NCBI GenBank assembly: GCA_905176665.1
Contig: CAJINA010000104.1
Location: forward strand, 36,699 to 100,698
Source of the DNA: Olavius algarvensis Delta 4 endosymbiont
Lineage (GTDB): Bacteria; Desulfobacterota; Desulfobacteria; Desulfobacterales; CAJINA01
Direction of reading: 5' to 3'
Length of the DNA stretch: 64,000 bases
The notes beneath the pieces are model-generated. The model saw only the letters and a program-made list of their open reading frames with translations. It was not told the origin of the DNA and searched no databases. The position numbers and the translations under genes were made by a program. Every line of letters starts with the position of its first letter. Within the stretch, counting starts at the first letter, position 1. Of this stretch, positions 33,346 to 50,807 are shown in pieces.

Positions 33346-33615
33346 TCATTCGGAATACTTTTTCCACAGGTGCCCATAAGCGCCGTTTTGCTTGATCCGA
33401 TCCAAGGAAGTCTGGAGTTTATTCACAAGAACATCCTCAGTTTTGCGGTTCACCGCCAGGTAATAATCATAGCGGTCATCCAGCAGGATCGTTTTCACTA
33501 CAAGATATTTTGAGGTAGTTGCTTTAAGGTGCGCCGGGTAATTCTCAGCGAGATTGTTTCCCTTAATTTTATCTATTTCGGAAATAGTCCCTGAGCACGC
33601 CCTTGACCAGATCAC
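33346..33615 (-). pseudogene. Relic C-terminal fragment of a solute-binding protein family 3 (amino-acid ABC substrate-binding) gene
   Basis: 89-aa ORF ...YYLAVNRKTEDVLVNKLQTSLDRIKQNGAYGHLWKKYSE matches only the C-terminal about 60 aa of SBP_bac_3 proteins. No N-terminal domain. Overlaps the 3' end of the caspase-like gene. Confidence 0.4.
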
Positions 33616-35278
33616 CGATCACTCCACCGGCTGTATAGTGATTGCCCCGGGCTTTTTTCTTATAGACCTTGGCATTTTCCGTATCATACAGAAATACCGT
33701 GCAACTTTCTTTAATGCTTATCCCTACATCGATGTCAACCAGAACAACCAGATTCGCGCCGACCTGAAGGCCGATGTCACGCACGGTTTTCAAGTCCGGT
33801 TCCAATTTCGAGAACATGTTCTTGCGCTTCCAAAGATTGGGGCTGTTGTGTTTTTCAAATATGCGCGGCTGCGTCAGTTCCACGGGAATGCTATCGGACG
33901 TTTCATATGAGTATTGCAAGGCAACCCGTTCATCACGGTCCAGGGTGGAAACGATCCCCTCCAGGGCGCTACTTTCCACGTTCTTGAGCCAGGCCTCCAG
34001 GTTCGCCTCAGCGGTATAAATGTTGGGGGGCAGGATTGCCAACCGGTAAGCTTCACGGGCGACCCTGCGTGAATTTGTGGTTTGAGGCGAAAGAGCTGCC
34101 TGGAGGCTACTTGCTGTAGCGGTTTTTTCAGCGGTCTTCCTCTTGCGCTCCATCTCCTCCATTTGGGCCTGCAATTTGGCATACTCGATTTCCTGCTTTT
34201 GTTGTTCCAGCTTGAGCTTTTCCAGTTCAATGGTTTTCTGCTGGGCCAGCTGTTCCTTCTCCAGGGCCAGTTTCTGTTTTTCCATTTCAAAACGCTGGCG
34301 TTGGAGTTCCAGTTCAGCCTGGGCCACGGTGGCCTGCTGCCGGGCCCGGTTCTGCTGCTGCCGCTGTGCTTCCAGGGCGACGTGTTTACGGGCATGCTCC
34401 GCGGCCCAGGCCGTGTTGTAAAGCACGAACTGACCGTCCTGGTCCATGGGCGTCTTCAAGCGCCCCACGTTGGGCCGCTGGTCTCCGATCTCGGTCACCT
34501 TGGTCCAGACCCGGGTGTGGAACAGGTTTTCCAGGTCGATCACCTCGCGGTCGTTCTTGCGCAGGGCATCGATCAGGTAAAAGGCAAACAGGCTGTGGCC
34601 TTCGGCGCCGCCGTCCGCCACCGGCTCCACCCCGCCCGACGAGATCACCTGGCGACTGCGCAAGGAGGCTTTCTGGACCAGCTTTTCCTTATAGCGGCGG
34701 TCGTTTAAAGACATCAGCGAGGGACCGCCGCGCAGCATGGACCCGCTGTAGCAGGAGTCGGCAATGACCACCACGTTCTTGGTCTGCAGTTTTTCCGAGC
34801 TGAGCACCGCCTTGATGTAGGAGTTGGCCACCCAGGTCCCGGGGTTTTTCAGGGCACCTTCGGCCGGCACCCAGTAGCCGTCGCCGGTAAAGTCGTCCAA
34901 CTGGCCGTGGCCGGCATAATAGACGAACAGGTTGTCGTGCGCGCCCATGGACTGGGCCAGGTAGCGCAGGTCCTGGATAATCTGCAGGCGGCTGGCCTGG
35001 CGGTCGGTGCGCAGGATGACACTGTCGGGTTTGAACCCGTAGCGGCCGACCAGGGTCTCTTTGATGACCGTGGCGTCCTTTACAGCCGTCTTGAGTCGCG
35101 GCCATTTGGCATAGTCATTTATGCCGATGATCAGGGCGTGGTAGGCACCCCAGGAACCGGACGCTCCGGATTGCGGGACGATGGCCAGGCCGCGCTGTGT
35201 GGATTGAGCTAAAACGGGATGATTGAGAAGAAAAAACAGGGATACTGAAAGGGTCAGAATAAGCCGTTTCAAAAGCAA
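33569..35278 (-). CDS. Secreted caspase-like (peptidase C14/orthocaspase) protein with Q/E/K-rich coiled-coil linker and C-terminal CsgG/LpoB-like(?) domain, paralog 1
   Basis: Signal peptide. HALIIGINDY...YYAGHGQL (His)...VIADSCYSGS (Cys) dyad. Long ELQRQRFEMEKQKLALEKEQL coiled coil. C-terminal about 170-aa domain shared with the paralogs. Confidence 0.85.
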   Translation of the reverse strand: MLLKRLILTLSVSLFFLLNHPVLAQSTQRGLAIVPQSGASGSWGAYHALIIGINDYAKWPRLKTAVKDATVIKETLVGRYGFKPDSVILRTDRQASRLQIIQDLRYLAQSMGAHDNLFVYYAGHGQLDDFTGDGYWVPAEGALKNPGTWVANSYIKAVLSSEKLQTKNVVVIADSCYSGSMLRGGPSLMSLNDRRYKEKLVQKASLRSRQVISSGGVEPVADGGAEGHSLFAFYLIDALRKNDREVIDLENLFHTRVWTKVTEIGDQRPNVGRLKTPMDQDGQFVLYNTAWAAEHARKHVALEAQRQQQNRARQQATVAQAELELQRQRFEMEKQKLALEKEQLAQQKTIELEKLKLEQQKQEIEYAKLQAQMEEMERKRKTAEKTATASSLQAALSPQTTNSRRVAREAYRLAILPPNIYTAEANLEAWLKNVESSALEGIVSTLDRDERVALQYSYETSDSIPVELTQPRIFEKHNSPNLWKRKNMFSKLEPDLKTVRDIGLQVGANLVVLVDIDVGISIKESCTVFLYDTENAKVYKKKARGNHYTAGGVIGDLVKGVLRDYFRNR

Positions 35279-35616
35279 CCTCCAGCCAAGGGAACCATCA
35301 AATGTAGTCTCAATTGAAATGGGTCTGCGGATGCTAATATAGTTTCAAAATAAAGGCAAGTGTGGGCGCTCATGTATCCAATTATCCGTAAACGTTCTTT
35401 GTCAGCCAAGTCAGATGGATTGCTTGAGGTGCCTATTGGCAATGACGATGGACCAAATATCTTAAATTGGAACACTTAAAATGGCTGGCTCATTACTTTG
35501 AAGGCAGGTTTTTAGGAAGCACGATTTTGAGGTAACAATGATGCAATCGGCAGGTAATACAATTAGAAGATAGTTAACCAATGGCCAGTCGATTCTTTAA
35601 AGCCAGGCATCCGATA

Positions 35617-37311
35617 TCATTGGTTCTTAAAATAGTCTTTCATAAGGCTGCGTACATAACCCTCAACGCTGTTAGGATATGCAAGCCAGGCGGGCCTGAA
35701 ATTTTTAGAGTAAATCTTTGCCTTAGCTAAGTCATATAAATAGAAGGTAAAACTTCCGGGATAGATTTCACCTTCTATCATCAAAACAAGATCCACGTCA
35801 ATTTTCAGATTGAGTTTATTAACTTCTTCCCAATCCGGCTTCAATCTGGAGAATATCGATTTCTTTTTCCATACATCATTTTTCGTAATATCACTTAGAA
35901 TTGTTACGCCTTCCGTAAAGTCCTCAAATTCTTCGTAACCATGGGTTAATTTTAATCTATCATCATCAAACGTTACATTGGCGACTGCTTGTATGCTGGC
36001 CAATTGATAACTACGCAGATATCTATCATCATTCGTGGAAGCATATAAATTCTGAGGTAATATCGCCAATTTGTATTCTTCTCGGGAAGCTTTCCGGTTT
36101 AACGCTCCGGGTTGATTTTTTACGGGAGGAGATACTGCCGCGACCATTTGCTGGCCAACCGGCGGGGCGGTTTCTTGAGGTTTGCGCTTCATATCTTCCA
36201 GTCGCGCCTGCAGCTTGGCATATTCGATCTCCTGTTTTTGCTGTTCCAACTTGAGCTTTTCCAGTTCGATGGTTTTCTGCTGAGCCAACTGCTCTTTTCC
36301 CAATGCCAGCTTTTGCTTTTCAATCTCAAAGCGCTGGCGCTGTAGCTCCAGTTCAGCCTGGGCCACCGCGGCCTGCTTTCAGGTCCGGTCCTGCTGCTGC
36401 CGCTCGGCTTCCAAAGCCGTGTGCTTCCGGGCGTGCTCCGCGGCCCAGGCCGTGTTGTAAAGCACGAACTGACCGTCCTGGTCCATGGGCGTCTTCAAAC
36501 GCCCCACGTTGGGCCGCTGGTCGCCGATCTCGGTCACCTTGGTCCAGACCCGGGTGTGGAACAGGTTTTCCAGGTCGATCACCTCGCGGTCGTTCTTGCG
36601 CAGAGCATCGATCAGGTAGTAGGCAAACAGGCTGTGGCCCTCGGCGCCGCCGTCCGCCACCGGCTCCACCCCACCCGACGAGATGACCTGACGCGAACGC
36701 AGAGATGCTTTCTGGACCAGCTTTTCCTTGTAGCGGCGGTCGTTTAGCGACATCAACGACGGTCCGCCTCTCAGCATGGAACCGCTGTAGCAAGAGTCGG
36801 CAATGACCACCACGTTCTTGGCCTGCAGTTTTTCCGAGCTGAGCACCGCGTTGATGTAGGAGTTGGCCACCCAGGTCCCGGGGTTTTTCAGGGCACCTTC
36901 GGCCGGTACCCAGTAACCGTCGCCGGTAAAGTCGTCCAACTGGCCGTGGCCGGCATAATAGACGAACAGGTTGTCGTGCACGCCCATGGACTGGGCCAGG
37001 TACCGCAGGTCTTCGATGATCTGCAGGCGGCTGGCTTTACGGTCGGTACGCAGGATGACGTTATCAGGTTGAAATCCGTAGCGGGAGATAAGAGTCTCTT
37101 TGATAACCGTGGCATCCTTCACTGCGGTCTGCAGCCGCGGCCACTTGGCATAGTCATTTATGCCGATGATCAGGGCGTGGTAGTCACCCCAGGAACCGGA
37201 CGCACCGGATTGCGGGGCGATGGCCAGGCCGCGCTGTGGGGATTGAGCTAAAACAGGATGATTGAGAAGAAAAAGCAGGAATACCAATAAGGTAAGAATT
37301 CTCAAATGCAA
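35617..37311 (-). pseudogene. Caspase-like (C14) paralog 2 interrupted by an in-frame TGA (36379-36381); otherwise the same architecture
   Basis: ORFs 36379-37311 and 35617-36366 are collinear with paralog 1. The TGA AAG replaces the CGG CAG (Arg-Gln) of the paralog inside the coiled coil. No SECIS-like hairpin follows. Confidence 0.6.
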
Positions 37312-37415
37312 GAATAGCCTCCGCTGTAATGTTACCGGCCAACTCCAATGAAAATGATACCCACTCTATTAGTACAATCTGGTGTCAAAGGCAAGTTGCC
37401 GGGTTGGATTGGAGG

Positions 37416-38015
37416 CTATCCTTGCTTATAAAATTTGGGATAATTTTCCTGGGAGCAATCGGGACACATGGAGTGCGGAACTTCTATGTCTGAATAATCT
37501 TTTATATATTGCTCGACGATCACCCAGCGGTTGTCAGGCTCGCGGACTTTGTTGCAACGGATACAGATGGGCGCGATTTCCCCCAGGGCACCCAATATCA
37601 ACTTGTTCATGGCGCGTACCCGCAGGCTCATGCTCTCCAGCAGCTCCAAGGCTAACTCCGGATTTTTCCGGATTTGGTTTTGGAAATCTTCCCGTTCGAT
37701 ACAGACCACTTGCACATAAGTGTCGGCCACTACAGTGGCGGAACGATTTTGCCGGTCAATAAGGGACATCTCTCCAAAATAGCTTTTGGGCCCGAAGGTC
37801 TGAATGTGCTTCTGGTATTTTTCCCCATAGCCAGTATAAATTTTGACCTGACCGTCGATCACGATAAAGAGCCGGTCACCCTGTTCGCCTTCCTGGATGA
37901 TGACATCCTCCCGTTCAAATTCATATTGTTTCGCTTTGTCACTAAGCTGTTTCAGGTCTAGCTCCGGTAGTTTTCCCAGCAAGGGAATTGCTTGAAAAGT
38001 TGCAGACCAGTCCAT
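37416..38015 (-). CDS. Cyclic-nucleotide-binding (cNMP/CAP effector) domain protein with C-terminal Cys4His2 zinc-ribbon-like tail in place of an HTH
   Basis: GEQGDRLFIVIDGQVKIY...YFGEMSLIDRQNRSATVVA cNMP-binding signature. Tail APICIRCNKVREPDNRWVIVEQYIKDYSDIEVPHSMCPDCSQENYP. Confidence 0.8.
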   Translation of the reverse strand: MDWSATFQAIPLLGKLPELDLKQLSDKAKQYEFEREDVIIQEGEQGDRLFIVIDGQVKIYTGYGEKYQKHIQTFGPKSYFGEMSLIDRQNRSATVVADTYVQVVCIEREDFQNQIRKNPELALELLESMSLRVRAMNKLILGALGEIAPICIRCNKVREPDNRWVIVEQYIKDYSDIEVPHSMCPDCSQENYPKFYKQG

Positions 38016-38047
38016 TGAGATCCTATCCTCCCTATTAAATTAAAAGA

Positions 38048-41000
38048 CTATCGATAATCACCAATAACCTGGAATGCAGCCCAATAATAAGGATGCCGGT
38101 ATTCCGGGTTCCCAATCATTTCTAACTGGGCCTGCCGCATGGCGGCAAACTTATTCATGGATTTTGGATTCGCGTAAAAGTGTTTCATCAACACACTGGT
38201 GGACTTGTCGTTCACACTCCAGAAGGTGCTCATGATCGAGGGTGTCCCGGCAAACATGAAGGCCCGGGTCAACCCCATGAGCTCGTCGCCGCTGGCCATT
38301 TTGCCCATAGCGGTGTTGCAGGCGCTAAGTGTAACCAGATAGGCATTCAGATTAAGCTCGAAGATTTCGGCGGTTTCCAGCCGGCCATCCTCATCGTTGC
38401 CCGGGGCCAGCCGCAGGCAGGAGAGCAGCGGGGTGTCCTGGTTGAATTCCCCGTGGGAAGCAATATGCAGAATATCGTAGTTGCCGGCGCTTTGCTTGAA
38501 AGCCGACTCTGAAGCCTGGTTCTGCGTCAAAACTGTGGTCTGATTGAAAAACTGCCTGATGTCCCGGACTTCAACCTCCGCATAGGGCAGCGTCATTTGG
38601 GGGTTACCCAGATTGGGGTTTCCGAGTGCCAGGACCGCCTTTTTAACAGTCTTCTTTTTATCAAAGACATGCCCGAGAACCGAGGCGCTGGGGGAGTAGC
38701 CAATCTCGTAGCTTTCAATCAAATATTTTCCTTCGAGGGTCAGGGCCTGGAAAGGCAGGTAGTGGAGAATCCCGTGCGGAATGATATATATTTTCCCGGC
38801 TGGGATGCCTGATAAAATGTCCGTGACCAGGACATCTTCCAACTGCCGGCTGATGGCCGCCAGGCTTTCCCGGGTTGGGGTCTGACGCGGCGCTTCCTGT
38901 GCGGCGACTTCCAGCCCGCGGACTGTATCCGGCCGACTGATAAGGTCGCGGTAGGCGCTGACAAGCTCAAGCAACTCGCTTGCGTCTATCTGTTTTTGAA
39001 CAAACCGAAAAGATTGCGGCCCGATGATCCAGGCAAATAGGTGCTTATCCCGGAAGTAATATTCCACCAGATGGGCATCCGCCGGAAGCAGTGCCTGGAC
39101 TTTTTCAATCGGCAGGGTGTCCGCTGACCGCAGGGATGCAAAATCTTTATTCCGACGAAACCAGCGCGAAAAGAACTCACCCAGGGCGCCCCGGGCGGCC
39201 GCTATTTCCCGGCTGTTGTCTATAGCCGCACCGCGTTCCTGGAACATACGCGTGTTCATTTCCGTACGGTATTGGACGTTCAACAAGTTCTCCCGCAGCC
39301 TTTTTTCTTCTTCCGTTATCTCCTTGAGGGCTTCGTTTTTTTGGCCGATGATTTTATCCGATCTGGCGATCAAATCAAGAAAGGCGCGTGCTTTTGATTT
39401 TTCTACATAATTATAGGCTGCTTTCGTTCGCTCTAGTTTAACCAAGCACTTTACCATGCGGGCGTAAGGCTCCTGCTTGTCCGACATGAAATTAATTTTA
39501 AGACCATGCGAAGTAAGTCGCGCCCGCGAAAATTCGATGGCATCGATTGCTTTTTGGTAGAATTCCACGGCCAACTCCAGCTTGTTTTCGGACTCGGCGA
39601 TCATCCCCTGGAGCTGGTAGGACCGCCACAGGAAGGCATTGGTCGGGGATTTTACGTTTTGCAAGATTTCCCGCGCCGGCTTGTATTGCCCCTGGTGGTA
39701 TAGTGTTTTGGCGATCCCGATTTGGATGCTGATCATCTGGTCATGGTATATGGCAGGCCGAACCTCGTAGCCAAGATACTTTTCTGCCTCCCTATATAGC
39801 CGCAGCGCCTCTACATAACCGCCGTTGCGCAGAGCGGCATCGCCCATGGTTTGATAGGCGATAGCCAGGGGGACAAACTTACCGATCTCCGTCGTCCGTG
39901 TATTGTAATGCGCCCAGGTGTCGTCAAAATTGTTTATGACCCGGTACGCATAGTATTCGGCCTCAGAACCATCCTGAAGGTGGTAGTGGTTGATGGCCAG
40001 GTAGGCACTTAATAGGAATTCCAGGTAATTCGCTTTGCCGATGATGTGTTTGGGCACCGGTCGTGACAGATTTTCTTTTACCCGCTCGATTTCCTTGAGG
40101 GCCTTTTCGCATTCGGCCACCGAGCTGTGGTAGTCCCCCACGAAGTTGTACGCCAAGGCGAGCCCGGAGCGCACTTTAGGCGTCAAGAGGGTCAGGGGTT
40201 GCTCCGCTTGCAGCCGGCTGGCTTTACGGTGGTAATCCAGGCTCTTATTGTATAGCCCGGTCCAGCGGTAATAATCGCCGATCCGGGCGTAAACATAGCT
40301 CAGGCTGTCGCCGGCCAGACTCCCGGGGTCGCTGATTTCCGCCAACAGATAGGGCAGCTTCACCAAAGCGATATAGAGTTCTTCATCGTTCAGGTCTTTA
40401 AAGAGGGCGAATTGATCCGGGAAGCGACGATCTTCTTTCACCCCGGTTGCCGATAGCTGTGAACGCCCTGATGTATGGGTTCTGATTATCGCCAGGTTTA
40501 TTCTTTTAATTATATACCGCTCATAATTAATCCTACCGCCCCTGTTGGCCGAGCGTACTTTCTGGTGGCCAAACTCGATGGTGTTTTTTCCGGAACGAAA
40601 ATAGGAAGCCGGCAGGTAGCGCTGGGTCCGGGCCTGCTTTTTTCGTTTTTTGGGCCCGGCTTGCCCGGCGTACCATTCGTCCTGATTAATCCCGTATCCT
40701 GCTCGCTTCAAAAAGCCAATCGGATGGCCGTTTAAAAAGAGCGGGTTTTCGGGATGATCTACATCCAGGGTATCGATGCTCAGGTAGGCGTACCGAATCC
40801 GCTGGGTCTCTTTCAGGTTGAAATCAAAGTGGTAGGATTGACGTACGCCGCCCCCGCTGCCTGATGAACCCATCTGCACGCCCAGGTTTCGGCTCTGAAA
40901 AAGCTCCTGCTCGAGGTGCAGGTTCTCCCTACCCTGCGGAATTGTGATTTGAAGGTTGGTGGATGAGCTGACACAGGCCCCTGCAAGCAGCGGCAGCAGG

Positions 41001-41074
41001 AACATCAAGATGATTAGGCGGATATTGTTTTTAAGGGCCTCCATTTGTACCCACCTTCCAATCCGTGTACACAC
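38048..41074 (-). CDS. CHAT-domain protein with TPR repeats, secreted/lipoprotein (paralogous architecture to 23233-26274)
   Basis: Signal peptide ending LLAGAC. TPR-like repeats. C-terminal CHAT (ILHIASHGEF...VTLSACNTAMG). Confidence 0.85.
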   Translation of the reverse strand: MCTRIGRWVQMEALKNNIRLIILMFLLPLLAGACVSSSTNLQITIPQGRENLHLEQELFQSRNLGVQMGSSGSGGGVRQSYHFDFNLKETQRIRYAYLSIDTLDVDHPENPLFLNGHPIGFLKRAGYGINQDEWYAGQAGPKKRKKQARTQRYLPASYFRSGKNTIEFGHQKVRSANRGGRINYERYIIKRINLAIIRTHTSGRSQLSATGVKEDRRFPDQFALFKDLNDEELYIALVKLPYLLAEISDPGSLAGDSLSYVYARIGDYYRWTGLYNKSLDYHRKASRLQAEQPLTLLTPKVRSGLALAYNFVGDYHSSVAECEKALKEIERVKENLSRPVPKHIIGKANYLEFLLSAYLAINHYHLQDGSEAEYYAYRVINNFDDTWAHYNTRTTEIGKFVPLAIAYQTMGDAALRNGGYVEALRLYREAEKYLGYEVRPAIYHDQMISIQIGIAKTLYHQGQYKPAREILQNVKSPTNAFLWRSYQLQGMIAESENKLELAVEFYQKAIDAIEFSRARLTSHGLKINFMSDKQEPYARMVKCLVKLERTKAAYNYVEKSKARAFLDLIARSDKIIGQKNEALKEITEEEKRLRENLLNVQYRTEMNTRMFQERGAAIDNSREIAAARGALGEFFSRWFRRNKDFASLRSADTLPIEKVQALLPADAHLVEYYFRDKHLFAWIIGPQSFRFVQKQIDASELLELVSAYRDLISRPDTVRGLEVAAQEAPRQTPTRESLAAISRQLEDVLVTDILSGIPAGKIYIIPHGILHYLPFQALTLEGKYLIESYEIGYSPSASVLGHVFDKKKTVKKAVLALGNPNLGNPQMTLPYAEVEVRDIRQFFNQTTVLTQNQASESAFKQSAGNYDILHIASHGEFNQDTPLLSCLRLAPGNDEDGRLETAEIFELNLNAYLVTLSACNTAMGKMASGDELMGLTRAFMFAGTPSIMSTFWSVNDKSTSVLMKHFYANPKSMNKFAAMRQAQLEMIGNPEYRHPYYWAAFQVIGDYR

Positions 41075-41141
41075 TCGTTTAAACTTGAATATCGGTTCAG
41101 TTTAAACGTCTTCTAATTTAATCTGTTCCGGTAGTGAACCG

Positions 41142-44100: not shown

Positions 44101-44207
44101 ATCAGCAGCCAGGCAATCAGGACGCCGACGAGAAATACCGGTAAAATCAGCCAGAAAATAATTCGCCGGTAAAAAGGCGGGGTGTGAGATTCGCTTGAAG
44201 GTGCCAT
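41142..44207 (-). CDS. Hybrid sensor histidine kinase/response regulator (TM, HAMP, 3 PAS including a Cys-rich PAS, HisKA, HATPase_c, REC)
   Basis: Two TM helices plus HAMP. HDFNNLLMGIQG H-box. ATP lid. C-terminal receiver. Paralog of 16281-18461. Confidence 0.9.
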   Translation of the reverse strand: MAPSSESHTPPFYRRIIFWLILPVFLVGVLIAWLLIVYISPHIEDHVNQHFEDNLRLTASLGVGVCESHFNQLLDMRLEDNLDMNAALQKEALTAIKKIGTQVTGVHIMVLEDKQIIKTISVDYPNDVWQLPPLEGQEGKLENIRLGAETIQALVQYFPFWDWHIISFVYMQELQTPMATARRSVVISTIVLLAAVFFVLLLTFRYALTKPLNRLIRATQDVAAGKLLPVDPIRDNEIGQLTAFFNSMVASLSMKTQEVQSLIDQLKESESRYKSLVELFPEAVFVHQDNIIKYINPSGVEMFGAANAQELNGQDLMNFVSPQFYEHVKARIQKVYQEHITLHPAEFQYLTVDGQTLVAESTATYIEYAGAPAVLSVVRDISERQQAELALQESEEQLSSVFRIAPTDIGVVADRMFKQVNARICEMTGYTEEELVDQNARILYPSDEDYEYVGREKYRQISEHGTGTVETRWQTKDGRILDVLLSSTPMDLSDLSKGVTFTALDITERKKNREALRISHERFLTVLDSIDATIYVADMDTSEILFMNRNMVESFGGDMTGQLCWGAFRGSTGPCPHCTNDQLVDAQGQPKDVCIWQGKNPLTGKWYINHDRAIQWTDGRLVRLQIATDITDLKRMEQQIQQTQKFEAIGTLAGGIAHDFNNLLMGIQGRSSLLAVDLESSQMDLENIKAIETYIRNATDLTRQLLGLAKGGKYEVKPTEINDLVGKSAKMFGRTKKEIRIHTRFQDPSPVVAVDRGQIKQVLLNLYINAWQAMVDGGELYLATQIVDLDESYCQPYDIAPGRYVKLSVTDTGVGMDEATRQRIFDPFFTTKKKGRGTGLGLASVYGIINNHDGFTVVNSEVGVGTTFNLHLPLSDKDALPEVSVKSKLVRGTETVLLVDDEEMIRDVGEAMLTKLGYNSLVADGGEQALDLIKHNGHAIDLVILDLIMPGMDGGKTFDRIKKIKPNMPVILASGYALDGQANEIMKKGCNGFIQKPYNISDLSQKVREILDGKSTGRNGS

Positions 44208-44212
44208 GATTT

Positions 44213-45382
44213 TTAAAAAAGCGCCGGAGCGGTTTGCATTTTATAAGGCCAGACAATCTCTTTTTTGTCTTGCTGCCATTGAATAATGATCGGATTATGC
44301 CCAATCTGCCGGCCGGCCGGATCTACTTTGAAACGGCCAATTACGGTCACCGTATCCAGGGCGGCGATGTAGTTGCGAAGCTTGCGATTGTCCAGAGATC
44401 CGGTGTATCGAACGGCGTCTGCCATCAATTGACAGGCGGCATATGCCGACCCGGCGTGGTAAGATGGAATCTTCCCGGAAAAACGGTTGAACGCATTTAC
44501 AAATTCCCTGGTACCTGGAAAGGGGATCCGTTCATTGGGTTCCCACTGGGATGGGCCGAACACACGGTCGGCCATGGGGCCGGCGTTTTTGGCAAAGTCC
44601 GGATGAACCGGTGCAATGGTCATCCCGAGAACCCGGGGATGGTAGTCAAGCTGCCGCATCAGATCCAGTATCCGGTAACAGTCCGGCGGATAAGCGGAAA
44701 CGATAATCTGGCCCGCCTCCGCCGCTTTTAATTCAGAAACAATCGCCGCCAGTTCCTTTTCGCCATCCTGGTAGGGCTTTTCGTGTGCAACGGAAATCAT
44801 GAATCTCCGGGCCCACTTTTTGGACCCTGCAGCCACGTCCACATTAAAGGGCGAACCTTTGTTGTAGACAAGCGACACGCTGTCGATTCCCTGGCGCGCC
44901 ATCATGTCCAGCAGCCCGATAAAATATCGATTCGCCAGCGCATAGACACCAAAAATGTATTGGAAGTCTCTTTCCCAGATAACTTCACCTGAGGCAGCAC
45001 AGGCCAGCATCAGCAATTCGTGTTGTTCGCTGACTTCCGAGGCAGTGAGGGTCAGCGGGGTACCATAAGGGGACAGGACAAGGTCTACCTGGTCTTCATC
45101 GATCAATTGACGGTAAAGACTTTTTGCCCGCGCCTTTTGACTTTTATCGTCATAGAGGACCAGTTTCACCTGGCGCCCGAGCAGGCCGCCCTGCTGGTTC
45201 ACCTCATGGGCCCATAGTTGATAAGCCTTCTGAATCATCAAAGAAGGCTCTTTGTAGGGCCCCTCCTTCGATATCGTCGCCCCAATCTTAATGGGCGCAT
45301 CTGCAGCAATGCCTGCGGTATGGGAGCCGGACAATAGGCAGAAAGTCACAAACAGGGTTGTCAATGTAAAACATGTTTTCAT
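44213..45382 (-). CDS. Periplasmic substrate-binding protein (LivK/Peripla_BP_6 family), probably a sensor-associated ligand-binding protein
   Basis: Signal peptide. IKIGATISKEGPY...LVLYDDKSQ type I PBP signature. Immediately upstream of the hybrid kinase (5-nt gap). Confidence 0.85.
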   Translation of the reverse strand: MKTCFTLTTLFVTFCLLSGSHTAGIAADAPIKIGATISKEGPYKEPSLMIQKAYQLWAHEVNQQGGLLGRQVKLVLYDDKSQKARAKSLYRQLIDEDQVDLVLSPYGTPLTLTASEVSEQHELLMLACAASGEVIWERDFQYIFGVYALANRYFIGLLDMMARQGIDSVSLVYNKGSPFNVDVAAGSKKWARRFMISVAHEKPYQDGEKELAAIVSELKAAEAGQIIVSAYPPDCYRILDLMRQLDYHPRVLGMTIAPVHPDFAKNAGPMADRVFGPSQWEPNERIPFPGTREFVNAFNRFSGKIPSYHAGSAYAACQLMADAVRYTGSLDNRKLRNYIAALDTVTVIGRFKVDPAGRQIGHNPIIIQWQQDKKEIVWPYKMQTAPALF

Positions 45383-45875
45383 CTAAGGCCCTCCCCAAGG
45401 TCGCGTTTGCAGGCCTTTGCACTTGGGTGGCTAACGAATCCGGATAGTTCAATGCAATGGAAGGTAGGTCGATTTCAGTACCGGATAGGTGGCATTATAC
45501 ATGAATCAATAAAATTTACAGCATAATTGAGACCGCTGTGGTCATCCTGATAAAAATGATTGCTAAACAGTGTCTGGTCTTCATTGAACCGACCGGTTGC
45601 AGCTCTAAAAAATCAGCAGCCCGATCACATCAGGATAAATGAGAAACATGAACTTATCAAAGCGATAGCTATTACTACGGGGAATGTATGCATCAAACGC
45701 TGGGCTTTAGAGGGACGGGTAAATCGATTGGGCTGAAAGGCAGTCGCCTGGCCATCAACCGGGGGGCAGCATGTCTGCTACCTGGCAGGCCAAATCCCCA
45801 GTTTATGAACTCAGGGGGCAAGTTTCCTAAAGGACCCGGCATTAAGATGTTCACCACCATCACCTTTTCGGGCGC

Positions 45876-46304
45876 CTATTTGGCCGTTGTCGGATAGTCT
45901 GCCTCGATCCATTCATCCCAGCCGCCCTTGAGGGCATAAACGTTGTTGTAACCCTGCTCGACTAAATTGAACGCCACACTGGCGCTCGTCTGTTCCCTGG
46001 CTCAGTCGCAACACAACACAATCATCTGGTGCTTGGGGTACTTGTGGATCCAGGAGCCGACTTCCATCGGCTCTTCGCGCACGGCGCCGGCAATCAGGCG
46101 ATCACTCTTTTTCCAGTTTGGGCCATACCGGACATCAATAATGCTGACGGCCGGCTCGCCTAGCTTTTGTTTGAGCTCTTCCTTGGTTATCCTGGGTATG
46201 TGCTCCACCTGTTTGATGGATTTGATACGGTGGTGACAGCCGAAAACGAATACGAGGACGAGCAGGAAGCTTATGCGCAAGACTGCTTTTCGATAATTTC
46301 GCAT
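45876..46304 (-). CDS. Periplasmic single-domain rhodanese, predicted selenoprotein (UGA at 46002-46004 read as Sec; C-x-U active-site loop)
   Basis: ORF 46002-46400 ends IVLCCD at TGA. The frame continues AREQTSASVAFNLVEQGYNNVYALKGGWDEWIEADYPTTAK* to TAG at 45876, completing a rhodanese fold. Signal peptide from ATG 46304. SECIS-like hairpin 13 nt after the UGA. Confidence 0.7.
45969..45987 (-). other. SECIS-like stem-loop (rhodanese 1)
   Basis: Minus-strand gagcgcc-agtgt-ggcgttc, 7-bp stem with one G-U pair, 13-14 nt 3' of the UGA. Confidence 0.5.
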
Positions 46305-46326
46305 AACAATTCCTCGGCAATAAGTT

Positions 46327-46737
46327 TCATTTCTTTTCAGTGGGGTACCCGGCCAGCACCCAGGCATCCCAGCCCCCCTTGAGCGCAAAGACTTGCTCAA
46401 ATCCCAGTTCCTTCAACCGGAGCACCACACTGGCGCTCGTGTATTCGCTGGGTCAGGCGCAGTAGATGACATAGGTGTTCTGTTTGGGCGATTTCGTAGC
46501 CCACGCGCTGACGTTGTGGGGGTCCTTGCGAACAGCGCCGGCAATCTTGCGGTCGCTGCCACGCCAATCCGAAACCCTGCGTACGTCAATCACTGTAAGA
46601 TCCTGTTGATTGAGCATCGCGTTCAACTCGGCGGGTTCTATTCTAAGGGAATCATCGGATGCATAAGCGCCTGCGGACAGAGACAGAATCAAGGCACTGA
46701 GAAACAGTATTTTTAAAAGTGTGCGAGAATATTTCAT
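46327..46737 (-). CDS. Periplasmic single-domain rhodanese, predicted selenoprotein (UGA at 46453-46455 read as Sec), tandem paralog
   Basis: ORF 46453-46737 ends VIYCA at TGA. The frame continues PSEYTSASVVLRLKELGFEQVFALKGGWDAWVLAGYPTEKK* to TGA at 46327. Signal peptide. Same hairpin GAGCGCC-AGUGU-GGUGCUC downstream. Confidence 0.7.
46420..46438 (-). other. SECIS-like stem-loop (rhodanese 2)
   Basis: Minus-strand gagcgcc-agtgt-ggtgctc, 7-bp stem, 13-14 nt 3' of the UGA. The nucleotide block around the UGA is nearly identical between the two paralogs. Confidence 0.5.
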
Positions 46738-47281
46738 TTCAACTCACTTTCCCCGGAAAGGATTCCGCTGCACCCTCAGCCAGCCTGATAAATAGGGCTG
46801 TTCAGCCAACACCCGGAAGAAGTCTGGCGTTGTTTGCCTGGCGCCGGGAAAACCTTTGATCACAGATAGATAGGGCGCAGCATCCTGTAAATAGAGTTAT
46901 ACTCCTTTGCAGCATGTCAAGGCGGCGGCGCGACAAATCAGCCTGCCCGGAGGTGGGCAAGGGCCCACCAGATGTGCCTATCTCGATCTAAATATCCGAC
47001 TGTACTGAATTAATCTGTACCCTCGCCACAGCAGTGAGTCGAAAACGGCCGCTTGACAGCGTGTTCGGGAGAGACGGATTCGCACAATGACATTGATAAA
47101 TTCTATTTAAAAAATTTTTTATATAGATTTTATCTATGATTGGGTGCTATAGTACGTATTCAAAAACCCCACCGGCAAACGGGTCTGAAAACTGCCGGGG
47201 CATTTTTGCTACGTTCAGGTGGCGACGCAAGTTATGTACACAAACGCTTGCCACCGGCGACTTTAGTGGGCATCACGAAAA

Positions 47282-48058
47282 ATGGAAACTTATCTGTTAA
47301 TTGGCTGCATAGGCATTTTTACAGGTTTTACATCGGGACTGCTTGGCATTGGTGGGGGCATCGTCATGGCGCCCCTGCTTCTGTTTTTACCGCCACTATT
47401 CGGCCTGGAACCCTATACCATGCGGATTGTAGCCGGGCTTACCATTGTGATGGGACTATTAGGCTGCCTCTCCGGGGGATTAACCCACCGCAAGTTCGAC
47501 TACGTGTCAACCCGACTTTCCGTTTATATGGGGATCAGTATTTTCATTGCCGCGTTTGTGGGCGGGGCCGCGACGCAATTTATCGCCAACGAGATTCTCC
47601 TGTTCATTTTCGCCAGCATGGCCTTTGCAGCTGCGATTTTGATGTTTGCACCGCTCAACCATGATGTGGAAAACCCGGATACCGCCGCCCTTGTGTTTCG
47701 CAAATCCCGGGCCGTGACGGCAGCCACCGGGGTGGGTCTTTTCGGCGGCCTGGTTGGCCAGGGGGGGTCATTTATTTTGATTCCCCTGATGACGAACTAC
47801 GTCAATATTCCTACCCGCATCGCGATCGGCAGTAATCTGGCTGTCGTCTTTTTATCATCGTTGGCGGCTTTTATCGGCAAGGCCGTTACCGGACAAATCG
47901 AGTGGCTTTTATCCACCCCGATTTTACTGACAGTGCTCCCGGCCGCATCCCTCGGTGGCCATGTCAGCCGCAGGGTCCCGATAAAATGGCTTAGAAGAAT
48001 TCTGGCCGTCCTAATCGCACTGGCCGCTATCCGTATGTGGTATTCCCTCGTGATTTGA
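47282..48058 (+). CDS. TauE/SafE (TSUP, DUF81) family sulfite/anion exporter-type permease
   Basis: 258 aa, 7-8 TM, duplicated GIGGGIVMAPLL / GGSFILIPLM motifs typical of TSUP. Confidence 0.8.
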   Translation: METYLLIGCIGIFTGFTSGLLGIGGGIVMAPLLLFLPPLFGLEPYTMRIVAGLTIVMGLLGCLSGGLTHRKFDYVSTRLSVYMGISIFIAAFVGGAATQFIANEILLFIFASMAFAAAILMFAPLNHDVENPDTAALVFRKSRAVTAATGVGLFGGLVGQGGSFILIPLMTNYVNIPTRIAIGSNLAVVFLSSLAAFIGKAVTGQIEWLLSTPILLTVLPAASLGGHVSRRVPIKWLRRILAVLIALAAIRMWYSLVI

Positions 48059-48245
48059 GATCAGTGAACAAAATTGCATCCTCAAAATCCAGTTTTCGCT
48101 CTACGCGCAGGCTCGAAAGGCAAAGCGGTCTTGTATATCAAATGTGGAGGGACACTGATAGTATTTTGAAGATTTGCTGCCTGCGCCCGACGCCGAGTTT
48201 TAGCCAAGAGAGTTGATTGCGATTGATACCAAGGAGGAAGAAGGA

Positions 48246-48563
48246 ATGAAGATAGCAATGGTCCTGTGCCAGGAAAACGTCGAGGTCATTTGGAACGCCT
48301 TCCGGTTGGCCAATATGATGTTGGAAGGCATGGAAGACGTCAGCATTTTTTTAAATGGTCCGGCTGTTGAATATGAAAAGATGGATTCCGTGACTTTCCC
48401 CCTGCTTGAGTTGGCCAAGGCATTCACCCTTTCCGAAGGAGCGCTTTTTGCCTGAGGGAAGCTAATGGACCTTCACGGTGTGAAGGAAGGTCACCACAAG
48501 AGAGGGACCCAGAAAGTTCTCTACGACTTGATCAAAGAGAGCGATAAGATTTTGGCTTTCTAG
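48246..48563 (+). CDS. DsrE/DsrF-like small sulfur-relay-fold protein, predicted selenoprotein (UGA at 48453-48455 read as Sec)
   Basis: ORF 48213-48455 (MKIAMVLCQENVEVIWNAFRLANMMLEGMEDVSIFLNGPAVEY...GALFA) stops at TGA. The frame continues GKLMDLHGVKEGHHKRGTQKVLYDLIKESDKILAF* to TAG at 48561-48563. Strong SD aaggagga before ATG 48246. Hairpin 15 nt after the UGA. Confidence 0.6.
48470..48486 (+). other. SECIS-like stem-loop (DsrE-like gene)
   Basis: ccttca-cggtg-tgaagg, 6-bp stem, GGUG loop, 15 nt 3' of the UGA. Confidence 0.45.
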
Positions 48564-48660
48564 CCTGTACTAGACATGGATGATTTGAAGTGCAGGCAGG
48601 CCACCGGCAATCAACTTTCAGTGAACCACTCAAAGGCCTTTGTCGCCTTCACCGGCCGAA

Positions 48661-48960
48661 CTAACTTTTCACCACCAGAACCACCAGGTCATCCAATGCC
48701 TGTATCCCGCGGGCTTCATTCGCATTAATGTGGACGTATTCGTGCGGCCCCAGTTCAATTTCCTCTTCTCCATGCGTAAAGATTCCTTTTCCCTGAATGA
48801 CCATGAAAAAGACGGCATGCCCGCCCCGGTGGGGCGGAATGGTCACCCCTTTTCCCAAAGCAATGCGCACCAGAGCAAAATGCTCCTGTTTTAAAATTGG
48901 TGTCTTAATGGGACCATCTATGGAGAAGGTCAACTTTTCAAGTAAGTTATTTGTTTGCAT
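48661..48960 (-). CDS. Cupin-fold small protein
   Basis: 99 aa, PPHRGGHAVFFMVIQGKG...HEYVHINANE two-motif cupin pattern. Confidence 0.7.
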   Translation of the reverse strand: MQTNNLLEKLTFSIDGPIKTPILKQEHFALVRIALGKGVTIPPHRGGHAVFFMVIQGKGIFTHGEEEIELGPHEYVHINANEARGIQALDDLVVLVVKS

Positions 48961-49070
48961 GCTGCCTCGATGGTAGAATCAAGAGAGTTACGGTAAAGAT
49001 TTGTCTGAATTTTCAAGTAAACATCTAAAGATAGGCAACCGATATGTGGCCGGTGAAGCAATGCGACACT

Positions 49071-50807
49071 CTACAAGCTACGTTTGTATTTTTCCAGAAG
49101 CTTGGTAGTATATTTGTCAACCAAATTACCAACGCCGAACCAGGCGCGGGCGCGTATTTTTTCGTTATACATTTTTCCGGTTCTGGCATTATAGACCAGG
49201 ATAGTGACTGTTACGCCGTCAGAGTCGGCGTGAATCTTTATTAAAGCAGCGATATCCATATCCAGCTTCCGGCAGACTTTTCTGATCTGCTCCAAGTCCG
49301 GTTCCGGTTTTGAAAGAAAGGATTTCTTTTTCCAGACGGCAAGTTCTTTTTTGTCGATTTTCTCCGCCAAGGGTGTGATTGTCTCGGGCAAATCGCTGGT
49401 AATTTTGTATGATGCCGCGAATTCAACTGCGTCACTTTTTCCGGTAGCCAGGTACACGCCCTGTATGGCTGCCGCTTCAAAGTTAGCCAGACCCCCGGTG
49501 GCCGATTCGATCACATTTATCGGAAAGAGTGCCAGCTTATAGCGTTCCCGGAAGACGGGGCGCTCGGATTGCAAACTTTTATCTACCGCGGCTAACTGCG
49601 TTTGCTGTTGGGAAAGTTGAGTTTGCTGCTTGGTAAGCTGAGTTCGCTGATCGGCCAATTTGCGGTCGTTCTCCAATTTATCCAGACGCGCCTGCATTTT
49701 GGCATACGCGATCTCCTGTTTTTCCCTTTCCAGCTTGAGCCGTTCCATCTCAAGGCTTTTCTGTTGGGCCAGTTTATCCCTCTCCAGGGCAAGTTTCTGT
49801 TTCTCCATCTGGATACGCTGGCGCTGGAGTTCCAATTCCGCCGATGCGACCGCGGCTTTCTGGCGGGCTTGCTCTTCTTTTTTGGCGGCCGCCTGGGCAG
49901 TTGCTTGGGCAGCCGCTTGCTTGCGGGCCTGCTTTTCAGCCCAGGCCGCGTTGTAAAGCACGAATTGGCCATCCTGGTCCATCGGGATTTTTAAACGGCC
50001 CACGTTGGGTCGTTGGTCGCCGATCTGGGTCACCTTCTCCCACACCCGTGTATGAAAGAGGTTTTCCAGGTCGATGACTTCACGGTCGTTGGTTTTCAGG
50101 GCATTGATGAGGTAGTAAGCAAACAGGCTGTGGCCGTCGGCCCCGCCGTCGGCAACCGGCTCGACGCCGCCCGAAGAGATGACCTGGCGAGATCGCAGGG
50201 CGGCCTTCTGGGCCAGCTTTTCCTTGTAGCGCCGATCTTCCAGGGACATCAAAGACGGCCCGCCGCGCAGCATGGAACCGCTGTAGCAGGAGTCGGCAAT
50301 AACAACCACATTTTTGGCCTGTAATTTTTCGGAACTCAGGACCGCCTTGATATAGGAATTGGCAACCCACGTGGCCGGGTCTTTCAGGGCGCCCTCGGCC
50401 GGCACCCAGTAGCCGTCGCCGGTGAAATCAGCCAATTGCCCGTGACCGGCAAAGTAGACGAGCAGGTTGTCGTTCTGACTCATGGATACAGCCAGATACC
50501 GCAGGTCACCAGTAATCCTGATTCGGTTGGCATCCCGGTCTGTGCGCAGGATGACATTCTGCGGGTTAAAACCGTAATTGGTGATCAGGGTATCCCGGAT
50601 AACGGTGGCGTCTTTCACCGCGGTTTGGAGGCGGGGCCACTTGGCATAATCGTTTATACCGATGATAAGGGCGTAGTACGTACCCCAGGAACCGGCGTTT
50701 ACTTGGGTGGGTGCCACAGCCAGTCCCCTTTGCGGGGATTGGGCCATTGCGGGCGGCACCAGAACTATCAAGGCAAGTACCAGGAAAGGCAGAATTGTCC
50801 GTTTCAA
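49071..50807 (-). CDS. Secreted caspase-like (peptidase C14) protein with coiled-coil linker and shared C-terminal domain, paralog 3
   Basis: Signal peptide. YALIIGINDY...YFAGHGQL...VIADSCYSGS. Q/E/K coiled coil. C-terminal RERYKLALFP...WKKKSFLSKPEPDLEQ...LVYNARTGKMYNEK homologous to paralogs 1 and 2. Confidence 0.85.
   Translation of the reverse strand: MKRTILPFLVLALIVLVPPAMAQSPQRGLAVAPTQVNAGSWGTYYALIIGINDYAKWPRLQTAVKDATVIRDTLITNYGFNPQNVILRTDRDANRIRITGDLRYLAVSMSQNDNLLVYFAGHGQLADFTGDGYWVPAEGALKDPATWVANSYIKAVLSSEKLQAKNVVVIADSCYSGSMLRGGPSLMSLEDRRYKEKLAQKAALRSRQVISSGGVEPVADGGADGHSLFAYYLINALKTNDREVIDLENLFHTRVWEKVTQIGDQRPNVGRLKIPMDQDGQFVLYNAAWAEKQARKQAAAQATAQAAAKKEEQARQKAAVASAELELQRQRIQMEKQKLALERDKLAQQKSLEMERLKLEREKQEIAYAKMQARLDKLENDRKLADQRTQLTKQQTQLSQQQTQLAAVDKSLQSERPVFRERYKLALFPINVIESATGGLANFEAAAIQGVYLATGKSDAVEFAASYKITSDLPETITPLAEKIDKKELAVWKKKSFLSKPEPDLEQIRKVCRKLDMDIAALIKIHADSDGVTVTILVYNARTGKMYNEKIRARAWFGVGNLVDKYTTKLLEKYKRSL

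What the first reader, a model, noticed from the sequence alone, without database searches (positions are those of the whole stretch)
33569..50807. Three paralogous secreted caspase-like (C14) proteins with a Q/E/K coiled-coil linker and a shared C-terminal (A/I)(L/I)(L/F)P-containing domain
Three genes share the architecture: 33569-35278, 35617-37311 (interrupted) and 49071-50807. Each has a signal peptide, a caspase His/Cys domain (HG…DSCYSG) with more than 80% identical cores, a 90-120-aa charged coiled-coil, and a roughly 170-aa C-terminal domain with conserved blocks (E/R)xY(K/R)LA(I/L)(L/F)P, WKKK(S/N)xFS(K/R)L(E/K)PD and (V/L)YDxxxxK(I/M)Y. The LA(I/L)LP block recalls the AVLPF strand of CsgG/LpoB/TolB-N-like periplasmic domains; this is my conjecture. 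Periplasmic orthocaspases tethered to such a domain, triplicated next to CHAT proteins, suggest a multi-protease extracytoplasmic system.
Basis: partly seen in the sequence, partly recalled or inferred. Interest (0 to 1): 0.7.

Follow-up and report, generated by a model that had tools for sequence, protein, structure and literature searches.

The report
Exported caspase-like proteases with swappable TolB-like tails
Three paralogous genes encode exported caspase-like proteases carrying a long helical stalk and a previously unnamed C-terminal domain predicted to have the TolB-N/LpoB/CsgG envelope fold; the protease half is kept almost identical while the tail is highly divergent, but I found no conserved link to the neighbouring CHAT proteases.

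Summary
Three minus-strand genes (33569-35278, 35617-37311, 49071-50807) share one layout: signal peptide, Peptidase_C14 domain, long helix, disordered linker and a ~160-aa C-terminal domain.

- **Active site.** The catalytic His and Cys are invariant in 83 homologues.
- **Gene B.** It is broken by one in-frame TGA, not a frameshift. A 99.94%-identical assembly has CGA (Arg) there.
- **CHAT link not supported.** CHAT lies within 10 kb only in the window's own lineage and one syntenic relative. It is absent from 12 other distinct loci.
- **New findings.**
  - The family is confined to Desulfobacterales-type MAGs.
  - It forms tandem arrays of 1-5 genes.
  - It is mosaic: caspase domains are 82-98% identical where the C-domains are 17-60%, and the break falls at the end of the helix.

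The most likely reading is Arg/Lys-specific envelope proteases docked or oligomerised through interchangeable C-domains. It is a new variant of a known kind and moderately interesting.

The parts
33569..35278 (-). Gene A: 569-aa exported caspase-like protein (intact)
   Evidence: ORF; identical to database protein P0001; Pfam Peptidase_C14 E 5e-20
35207..35278 (-). A: predicted Sec signal peptide, residues 1-24 (…NHPVLA|QS); TTG start
   Evidence: Sequence inspection; modelled as an N-terminal helix 2-18; no in-frame ATG or GTG start upstream
34415..35149 (-). A: caspase (p20+p10-like) domain, residues 44-288; His124 at 34907-34909, Cys176 at 34751-34753
   Evidence: Pfam; pLDDT >90; Foldseek to Yca1, MCA9, MALT1 and GSU0716 at E ~1e-11; H124 and C176 invariant, D92 and D174 >=90% conserved; coordinates checked
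34160..34414 (-). A: 85-residue Q/E/K/R/A-rich helix (stalk), residues 289-373
   Evidence: AF2 secondary structure H289-373; weak or moderate heptad signal
34049..34159 (-). A: disordered linker, residues 374-410. The recombination or identity break between paralogues falls at its start (codon ~378)
   Evidence: pLDDT <50 for 370-407; nucleotide identity falls from 83-93% to 30-46% here
33572..34048 (-). A: C-terminal domain with TolB-N/LpoB/CsgG-like fold, residues 411-569
35617..37311 (-). Gene B: 564-codon paralogue interrupted by one in-frame stop
   Evidence: ORFs 36379-37311 and 35617-36366 are in the same frame. The ENA contig L004 and the JGI protein P0003 show the gene intact
36379..36381 (-). 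B: TGA nonsense codon 311 (CGA = Arg in the sister assembly)
36454..37188 (-). B: caspase domain (His122 at 36946-36948, Cys174 at 36790-36792)
   Evidence: Pfam E 6e-21; coordinates
35620..36096 (-). B: C-terminal TolB-N-like domain
   Evidence: Family profile hit E 4e-52
49071..50807 (-). Gene C: 578-aa paralogue, solitary, about 12 kb from B
   Evidence: ORF; Pfam E 7e-19; its caspase domain and C-domain are each >=99% identical to P0023
49950..50684 (-). C: caspase domain (His122 at 50442-50444, Cys174 at 50286-50288)
49074..49550 (-). C: C-terminal TolB-N-like domain
   Evidence: Family profile hit, best-domain E 6.5e-47

Best explanation
Each gene encodes a self-contained, Sec-exported cysteine protease of the metacaspase/orthocaspase type. 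It most likely cleaves after Arg or Lys.

After signal-peptide removal, the caspase head is carried on a long helical stalk. By length alone, 85 residues would span about 12-13 nm. A flexible linker then joins the stalk to a C-terminal domain of the TolB-N/LpoB/CsgG/PelC fold.

That fold is used elsewhere by periplasmic and outer-membrane-associated proteins to bind partners or to form rings. I therefore infer that the C-domain docks or oligomerises the protease at a particular envelope site. The stalk would set the reach of the catalytic head.

The paralogues keep one nearly identical protease-plus-stalk module and differ in the docking domain. Arrays of 1-5 genes would then give one activity several addresses.

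- **Shown:** the domain architecture, the conserved active site, the fold assignment, the mosaic evolution, and the lack of conserved partner genes.
- **Inferred:** periplasmic location, Arg/Lys specificity, the docking or oligomerisation role, and autoprocessing at the invariant R29-G30 and R183-G184.

The nearby CHAT lipoproteins are neighbours, not a conserved part of the unit. Copy B in this assembly is a nonsense allele of an otherwise intact gene.
For: **Protease identity**
- Pfam C14 hits.
- H124 and C176 are invariant, and D92 and D174 are >=90% conserved, in 83 homologues. D174 sits in the DSC motif. This corresponds to TbMC2 Asp211, one of two Asp residues that accommodate basic substrates (PMC6426788).
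- The closest solved relatives are Yca1 (E 3e-9 by sequence) and Yca1, AtMC9, MALT1 and GSU0716 by fold.

**Architecture**
- The full-length model shows a head at 46-287, a helix at 289-373, a disordered segment at 374-410 and the C-domain at 411-568.

**C-domain fold**
- One family member (P0150) has a Pfam LpoB hit (32.5 bits, above the cut-off) inside a stretch also matched by the C-domain profile.
- Among the C-domain profile's top hits outside the first caspase search, about half have exported-type N-termini by a crude classifier. Several are lipoprotein-like.
- The same domain is fused to other proteases (Trypsin_2, Peptidase_S9) and to envelope modules (PEGA, CarboxypepD_reg, YfiR-like).

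**Mosaic evolution**
- A/B caspase region: 92% nucleotide identity and dS 0.31. The C-domain has 45% nucleotide identity and saturated dS. The break is at codon ~378.
- In syntenic arrays, L1_1/L5_1 are 96% identical in the caspase domain but 29% in the C-domain. L1_5/L5_3 are 96% and 76%.
- Across 83 homologues, median identity is 73% for the caspase domain and 20% for the C-domain.

**Stand-alone unit**
- No partner gene recurs near the family.
Against: - No experiment, and no localisation or oligomer prediction, was possible.
- The caspase fusions have no lipobox, so attachment to the outer membrane is not implied.
- The heptad signal in the stalk is weak, so the helix could be a single alpha-helix rather than a coiled coil.
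- Sequence-level homology of the C-domain to TolB_N, CsgG or LpoB was not shown. There are no Pfam hits for 49 members at E<=1. A small profile-profile test gave probability 3.8%.
- The fold is also shared with cytoplasmic anticodon-binding domains at lower Z (6-8).
- dS is about two-fold lower in the caspase region even for clear orthologues (0.69 vs 1.55). Part of the head/tail contrast may therefore reflect constraint on synonymous sites rather than recombination.
Confidence: 0.55

Rival explanations
1. The three caspases work together with the adjacent CHAT-TPR proteins, the cNMP-binding protein and the sensor kinase as one extracytoplasmic multi-protease cascade.
For: - The genes for the Peripla_BP_6-type periplasmic binding protein (PBP), the hybrid histidine kinase (HK), CHAT, the cNMP-binding protein, B and A are co-directional with short gaps.
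- Both CHAT proteins have lipoprotein-like N-termini, so they are probably also exported.
- A related genome keeps PBP-HK-CHAT about 7 kb from a C-like caspase pair.
Against: - CHAT is absent within 10 kb in 12 other distinct loci with the same caspase architecture. These include the 5-gene and 3-gene arrays.
- The one further case (L090) is a syntenic relative, not independent evidence.
- No non-caspase neighbour family recurs apart from generic sensors.
Confidence: 0.1
2. The C-terminal domain is mainly an intramolecular regulator: an inhibitory or pro-domain, or a built-in substrate. It would be released by autoprocessing, for example at the conserved, basic WKKK loop or in the linker, rather than acting as a docking module.
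For: - Metacaspases and orthocaspases commonly autoprocess after Arg or Lys (general knowledge; PMC6426788).
- The strongly conserved W-K-K-K-S-x-F-S-x-x-E-P-D motif lies in or next to a lower-confidence excursion of the model.
- Invariant R-G dipeptides occur in flexible segments.
Against: - A regulatory domain that must fit one highly conserved protease head would be expected to co-evolve with it and stay conserved. Instead it is the most variable part.
- The same domain occurs alone, in tandem repeats and with unrelated partners.
Confidence: 0.15
3. The proteins are released effectors used against other cells, either competitors or, in symbionts, the host. The variable C-domain would act as a receptor-binding module under diversifying selection.
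For: - The pattern of a conserved enzymatic part, a hypervariable or swapped C-terminus and variable-copy tandem arrays recalls polymorphic effector loci.
- Relatives occur in the Olavius Delta-4 endosymbiont.
Against: - No immunity-like small genes lie between array members. Intergenic gaps are only 50-340 bp with no recurrent ORF.
- No secretion-system genes or recognisable outer-membrane export signal are present.
- The variable part is not a toxin fold but an envelope-docking fold.
Confidence: 0.15

Closest known systems
Bacterial orthocaspases / type-I-like metacaspases (MEROPS C14B; e.g. Microcystis MaOC1, yeast Yca1, Geobacter GSU0716)
   Same: - Peptidase_C14 domain with the HG…DSC dyad and both conserved Asp residues.
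- p20 followed by a p10-like half with a short loop.
- Nearest in sequence and fold.
- N-terminal signal-like helices on prokaryotic caspase homologues have been noted before (PMC3501461).
   Different: - Signal peptide instead of a cytoplasmic pro-domain.
- An 85-residue helical stalk.
- A C-terminal TolB-N-like domain, which I did not find described with caspases.
- Unusually high conservation of the protease domain (median 73%, often >83%) across the family.
TolB N-terminal domain / CsgG / LpoB / PelC / FlgT-FlgO / HpaA / DUF330 fold group. Pfam places CsgG, TolB_N and DUF330 in one clan (PMC3173608).
   Same: - Same predicted alpha/beta fold, with a hydrophobic beta-1 strand ending in Pro (LAxFP versus AVLPF-type).
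- Extracytoplasmic context.
- Stand-alone relatives with lipoprotein-like N-termini.
   Different: - No significant sequence match to any of these Pfam families.
- It has its own conserved W-K-K-K-S-x-F-S-x-x-E-P-D-W insertion.
- No lipid anchor in the caspase fusions.
- No transmembrane hairpins like those of CsgG (from my own knowledge of the CsgG structure).
- Oligomeric state unknown.
LpoB-type periplasm-spanning regulators (a globular domain on a long spacer that reaches a partner across the periplasm)
   Same: A globular TolB-N-like domain is separated from the rest of the protein by a long spacer, which suggests reach across a defined distance. This is an inference from general knowledge of LpoB.
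   Different: - The spacer here is a rigid helix plus a short disordered linker, not a long disordered tether.
- The cargo is a protease.
- The orientation is reversed: the domain is C-terminal and there is no lipid anchor.
Polymorphic or cassette-type loci (conserved N-terminal part, exchangeable C-terminal module, tandem copies)
   Same: - Sharp identity break at a domain boundary.
- Near-identical heads on unrelated-looking tails.
- Variable copy number between syntenic loci.
   Different: - The conserved part is the enzyme and the variable part is a binding-type fold.
- No cognate immunity genes.
- No secretion-system association.

Membership tests
Peptidase C14 (caspase/metacaspase/orthocaspase, clan CD) | Sequence match to the Peptidase_C14 profile above the curated threshold | tested here: met
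   72.6, 75.7 and 68.8 bits against a cut-off of 21.4
Peptidase C14 (caspase/metacaspase/orthocaspase, clan CD) | Catalytic His-Cys dyad in the HG and (D)SC motifs, conserved in orthologues | tested here: met
   H124 and C176 are invariant in 83 homologues. They align with the Yca1 GHG and DSCHSG motifs.
Peptidase C14 (caspase/metacaspase/orthocaspase, clan CD) | Caspase-hemoglobinase fold | tested here: met
   AF2 head pLDDT >90. Foldseek hits to Yca1, Candida MCA, AtMC9, MALT1 and GSU0716 at E 1e-11 to 1e-9.
Metacaspase/orthocaspase subgroup (Arg/Lys-specific) | Two acidic S1-pocket residues (TbMC2 Asp95 and Asp211) | tested here: met
   D92 (ILRTD) and D174 (DSC) are >=90% conserved. The residue roles come from PMC6426788. 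Mapping of D92 to Asp95 is by motif position, not by structural superposition.
Metacaspase/orthocaspase subgroup (Arg/Lys-specific) | Proteolytic activity and autoprocessing after Arg/Lys | not testable with these tools
   Only candidate sites were found: invariant R29-G30 and R183-G184.
TolB-N / CsgG / LpoB / PelC-like fold group | Three-dimensional fold | tested here: met
TolB-N / CsgG / LpoB / PelC-like fold group | Sequence membership of a named Pfam family of the group (TolB_N, CsgG, LpoB, FlgO, DUF330…) | tested here: not met
   No hit for the three window domains at E<=10. None of these families was hit consistently among the 49 family members at E<=1; there was one weak DUF3280 hit. 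No PDB sequence hit. hhalign against three CsgG-type segments gave probability 3.8%.
TolB-N / CsgG / LpoB / PelC-like fold group | Transitive sequence link through intermediate family members | tested here: inconclusive
   In P0150, residues 401-564 match the C-domain profile (1e-17) and contain a Pfam LpoB hit at 486-533 (32.5 bits, cut-off 22.3). This rests on the one intermediate examined; the summary scan lists a second LpoB-hitting member that was not checked.
TolB-N / CsgG / LpoB / PelC-like fold group | Lipoprotein anchor and/or ring oligomer (CsgG, PelC, LpoB) | tested here: not met
   No Cys follows the signal peptide in A, B or C. Oligomerisation cannot be tested here.
Conserved caspase-CHAT multi-protease gene cluster | Recurrent gene neighbourhood across independent genomes | tested here: not met
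   CHAT lies within 10 kb only in the window lineage and one syntenic relative. It is absent from 12 other distinct loci. Neighbour clustering found no recurrent partner.
Coiled coil | Heptad periodicity of hydrophobic a/d positions over several heptads | tested here: inconclusive
   Best-register a/d occupancy is 0.25-0.5 with shifting register. It is stronger in residues ~317-373. AF2 shows a single long helix.

The most novel reading that the evidence does not exclude
The family may be a cassette-like retargeting system. One strongly conserved exported protease-plus-stalk module would be recombined, at the stalk/linker boundary, with a pool of very divergent TolB-N-like domains. Tandem arrays would then give a cell (here free-living and symbiotic sulfate reducers) a changeable set of envelope or cell-cell 'addresses' for one proteolytic activity. 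Possible uses are self/non-self discrimination, defence or host interaction.
Probability: 0.2. Interest if true: 0.7.

Novelty: new variant of a known kind. Interest (0 to 1): 0.5.

Why it matters
Bacterial caspase homologues are widespread, but almost none has a known substrate or location. The exported ones are the least understood.

This family has three features that make it tractable:
- A clean three-part design of head, ruler-like stalk and envelope-fold tail.
- An unusually conserved active domain.
- Natural 'domain-swap experiments' within and between genomes.

It also defines a new sequence family of the TolB-N/LpoB/CsgG fold, with about 345 clusters in 1.84 billion representatives. 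That domain is repeatedly fused to different proteases. It could therefore be a general device for placing enzymes in the Gram-negative envelope.

If the tails prove to be address modules, the arrays would show how a bacterium diversifies the targets of one periplasmic protease.

Tried and rejected
- **Word-indexed homologue search.** The search with the three-sequence C-domain alignment found nothing. This was a sensitivity limit. The exhaustive profile search later found 345 relatives.
- **afdb50 fold library.** It was unavailable.
- **Selenocysteine or recoding at the TGA in gene B.** Rejected: the sister assembly has CGA (Arg) at that codon. Three of the 13 differences between the assemblies fall in B, all non-synonymous, which fits a nonsense allele.
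- **Frameshift in B.** Rejected: both ORFs are in the same frame.
- **Promoter and terminator scan.** It gave counts equal to the shuffled expectation, so it says nothing about operon structure.
- **Profile-profile test against three Pfam-CsgG-type segments.** Not significant: probability 3.8%.
- **PADLOC and NCBIfam.** They gave only generic caspase, CHAT and cNMP matches, and the NCBIfam hits were below their cut-offs. No defence-system assignment follows.
- **Literature searches.** Searches for caspase with TolB/LpoB/CsgG, and for caspase in Olavius symbionts, found nothing relevant.
- **Extra copies in the window.** No further copy of the C-domain was found.

Full report
**1. What is there**

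- A: 33569-35278, 569 aa.
- B: 35617-37311, 564 codons.
- C: 49071-50807, 578 aa.

Each matches Pfam Peptidase_C14 at E ~1e-20 over residues ~45-271. The proteins align end to end. Caspase-domain identity is 95% for A/B and 82-84% for either against C.

The N-termini have a basic start, a hydrophobic core and a VLA|QS or AMA|QS site. By inspection I read them as Sec signal peptides. None has a lipobox Cys.

All three genes can only begin at TTG, and each has GGAGG just upstream.

**2. Gene B**

The interruption is one in-frame TGA at 36379-36381, not a frameshift. An ENA contig that is 99.94% identical over 21.7 kb has CGA (Arg) at that codon. It and the JGI protein P0003 both encode an intact 564-aa protein.

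Of the 13 differences between the window and that contig, three fall in B. All three are non-synonymous. So B in this assembly is a nonsense allele, or possibly an error, of a normally intact gene. If real, it would yield an exported but stalk-less and tail-less caspase head.

**3. The protease domain**

- In an alignment of 83 full-length homologues, H124 and C176 are invariant. D92 and D174 are >=90% conserved.
- D174 is the Asp of the DSC motif. Together with the upstream Asp it corresponds to the two acidic S1-pocket residues that let metacaspases accept Arg/Lys (PMC6426788).
- The closest solved sequences are fungal and plant metacaspases, with Yca1 at E 3e-9.
- The full-length model's head matches Yca1, Candida metacaspase, AtMC9, MALT1 and Geobacter GSU0716 at E 1e-11 to 1e-9.
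- Two Arg-Gly dipeptides are 100% conserved in flexible segments. R29-G30 lies just after the signal peptide. R183-G184 lies seven residues after the catalytic Cys. They are candidate self-processing sites. This is an inference only.

**4. Stalk and linker**

AlphaFold2 with the 83-sequence alignment gives this layout:
- caspase head, residues 46-287, pLDDT >90;
- one uninterrupted helix, residues 289-373;
- a disordered stretch, residues 374-410;
- a compact C-terminal domain, residues 411-568.

A simple heptad count finds strong hydrophobics at only 25-50% of a/d positions. The register shifts along the helix, and the signal is best in the distal ~55 residues. I therefore call it a long helical stalk. 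A coiled coil is possible but not shown.

**5. The C-terminal domain**

*Sequence level.* The domain has no Pfam hit even at E<=10. It has no NCBIfam family and no PDB sequence match. Scanning 49 family members at E<=1 gave no consistent family.

*Fold level.* Modelled alone with 49 homologues, it gives pLDDT 90 and pTM 0.87.
- Foldseek agrees, with TolB, FlgT, PelC and LpoB at E ~1e-4.
- Pfam already groups CsgG, TolB_N and DUF330 in one clan (PMC3173608).

*Homology.* The evidence at sequence level is thin. One intermediate protein, P0150, carries a Pfam LpoB hit above threshold inside a stretch matched by the C-domain profile. A small profile-profile test was not significant.

**6. Distribution of the C-domain**

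An exhaustive profile search of 1.84 billion representative proteins found 345 relatives at E<=1e-3.

Among 104 of the profile's top hits outside the first caspase search, the partner domains were:

| Partner domain | Members |
|---|---|
| Peptidase_C14 | 30 |
| PEGA | 4 |
| CarboxypepD_reg | 4 |
| CsgG | 4 |
| Guanylate_cyc | 4 |
| YfiR-like | 3 |
| Lcl_C | 3 |
| FlgO | 3 |
| Trypsin_2 | 2 |
| Peptidase_S9 | 1 |

The domain also occurs alone and in tandem runs of 2-4 stretches. About half of the 104 have exported-type N-termini by a crude test, and some are lipoprotein-like. This fits an extracytoplasmic interaction module that is repeatedly attached to proteases.

**7. Taxonomy and gene context**

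- In species-representative genomes, the full architecture appears only in Desulfobacterales and Desulfatiglandales-type MAGs. Caspase domains alone, at 35-45% identity, occur in Nitrospira, Acidobacteriota and others. One homologue cluster (P0038, on the same contig as P0006) is labelled Olavius algarvensis Delta 4 endosymbiont.
- Arrays vary in size. There are five tandem genes around P0006 (L001), three in a syntenic locus (L005) and two in L009. The window has two plus one.
- CHAT is found within 10 kb only in the window's own lineage (L004) and in one syntenic relative (L090). It is absent from 12 other distinct loci.
- Clustering of all neighbouring ORFs found no recurrent partner except generic PAS/histidine-kinase sensors.
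- Both CHAT-TPR proteins in the window do look like lipoproteins. Several exported clan-CD proteases are therefore co-located here, but a conserved 'system' is not supported.

**8. Mosaic evolution (not in the original finding)**

*Within the window.* For A against B, the caspase region is 92% identical at the nucleotide level, and the third positions of conserved codons are 84% identical. The C-domain is 45% and 40%. NG86 dS is 0.31 in the caspase region and saturated in the C-domain. The switch is abrupt, at about nucleotide 1135 (codon ~378). That is the end of the predicted helix.

*Between two syntenic arrays*:

| Gene pair | Caspase identity | C-domain identity |
|---|---|---|
| L1_1 / L5_1 (first gene of each array) | 96% | 29% |
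| L1_5 / L5_3 (last gene of each array) | 96% | 76% |

*Across all pairs of 83 homologues.* Median identity is 73% for the caspase domain and 20% for the C-domain. Pairs with 90-100% identical heads have a median C-domain identity of 29%.

The caspase domain is under strong purifying selection, with omega 0.02-0.10.

The simplest reading combines two processes. One is homogenisation of the head-plus-stalk module by gene conversion or recent duplication. The other is retention or exchange of old, divergent tails at the linker.

One caution applies. dS is also about two-fold lower in the head for clear orthologues. Constraint on synonymous sites may therefore contribute to the contrast.

**9. 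Interpretation**

*Best explanation (confidence about 0.55).* These are self-contained exported Arg/Lys-specific cysteine proteases. A TolB-N-like tail docks or oligomerises them in the envelope. The stalk sets their reach. The paralogues provide different 'addresses' for the same activity.

*Rivals:*
- A CHAT-linked protease cascade (0.1).
- The tail as an autoinhibitory or processed regulatory domain (0.15).
- Released antagonistic or host-directed effectors with a variable receptor-binding tail (0.15).

None of these can be settled without biochemistry and localisation.

**10. Novelty and score**

Exported bacterial caspase homologues are a known but uncharacterised category (PMC3501461). 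The tail fold is known. What I did not find described is:
- this sequence family of the tail;
- its fusion to a caspase through a helical stalk;
- the tandem arrays;
- the head/tail mosaicism.

I rate it a new variant of a known kind, with interest 0.5.

Noticed in passing
window 37416-38015, 28641-30521, 27999-28610, 22458-23087 (all minus strand): Four otherwise different sensor-type proteins (one cNMP-binding; two with PAS domains, one hit weak; one not scanned) end with the same ~37-aa motif, CxxC-x(15-40)-H[SG]xCPxC. An example is CSSCKKIRDDGGYWNQIESYIRDHSEAQFSHSICPEC. It looks like a shared zinc-ribbon-like output module. For the two that were scanned with Pfam (37416-38015 and 27999-28610), no hit covered it.
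   Followed up: partly
window 38048-41074 and 23233-26274 (minus strand): Two ~1000-aa TPR-CHAT proteins have lipoprotein-like N-termini (…LLAGAC…, …IITGC…). They are therefore probably extracytoplasmic CHAT proteases. The PBP-hybrid kinase-CHAT trio is conserved in a related genome (L090).
   Followed up: partly
window 35276-35278, 37309-37311, 50805-50807: All three caspase genes start at TTG, preceded by GGAGG. No in-frame ATG or GTG would keep the signal peptide. In the sister assembly, codon 3 of gene A is TTA instead of TTG.
   Followed up: partly
gene A residues 29-30 (window 35189-35194) and 183-184 (window 34727-34732), and the equivalent positions in B and C: Two Arg-Gly dipeptides are 100% conserved in 83 homologues although they lie in low-confidence, flexible segments. 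One is just after the signal peptide. The other is seven residues after the catalytic Cys. They are candidate autoprocessing or pseudosubstrate sites.
   Followed up: partly
window 23569-45278 versus L004: The window differs from an independent ENA assembly at 13 positions in 21.7 kb. Nine are non-synonymous. Three of those cluster in gene B, and two adjacent-codon changes lie in the PAS protein at 28641-30521.
   Followed up: yes
homologues P0057, P0065, P0067, P0070, P0071, P0076, P0080 and P0094, P0082, P0098, P0099: Two kinds of family variant exist. Some insert an Lcl_C (PF07603/DUF1566) domain between the caspase stalk and the TolB-N-like tail. Others carry two tandem tails.
   Followed up: no
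L001 3440-3748 and L005 7054-7362: An FlgM (anti-sigma-28) gene lies just upstream of the 5-gene and 3-gene caspase arrays in two syntenic relatives. A PAS histidine kinase and a large PKS lie downstream. None of this is present next to the window's copies.
   Followed up: no
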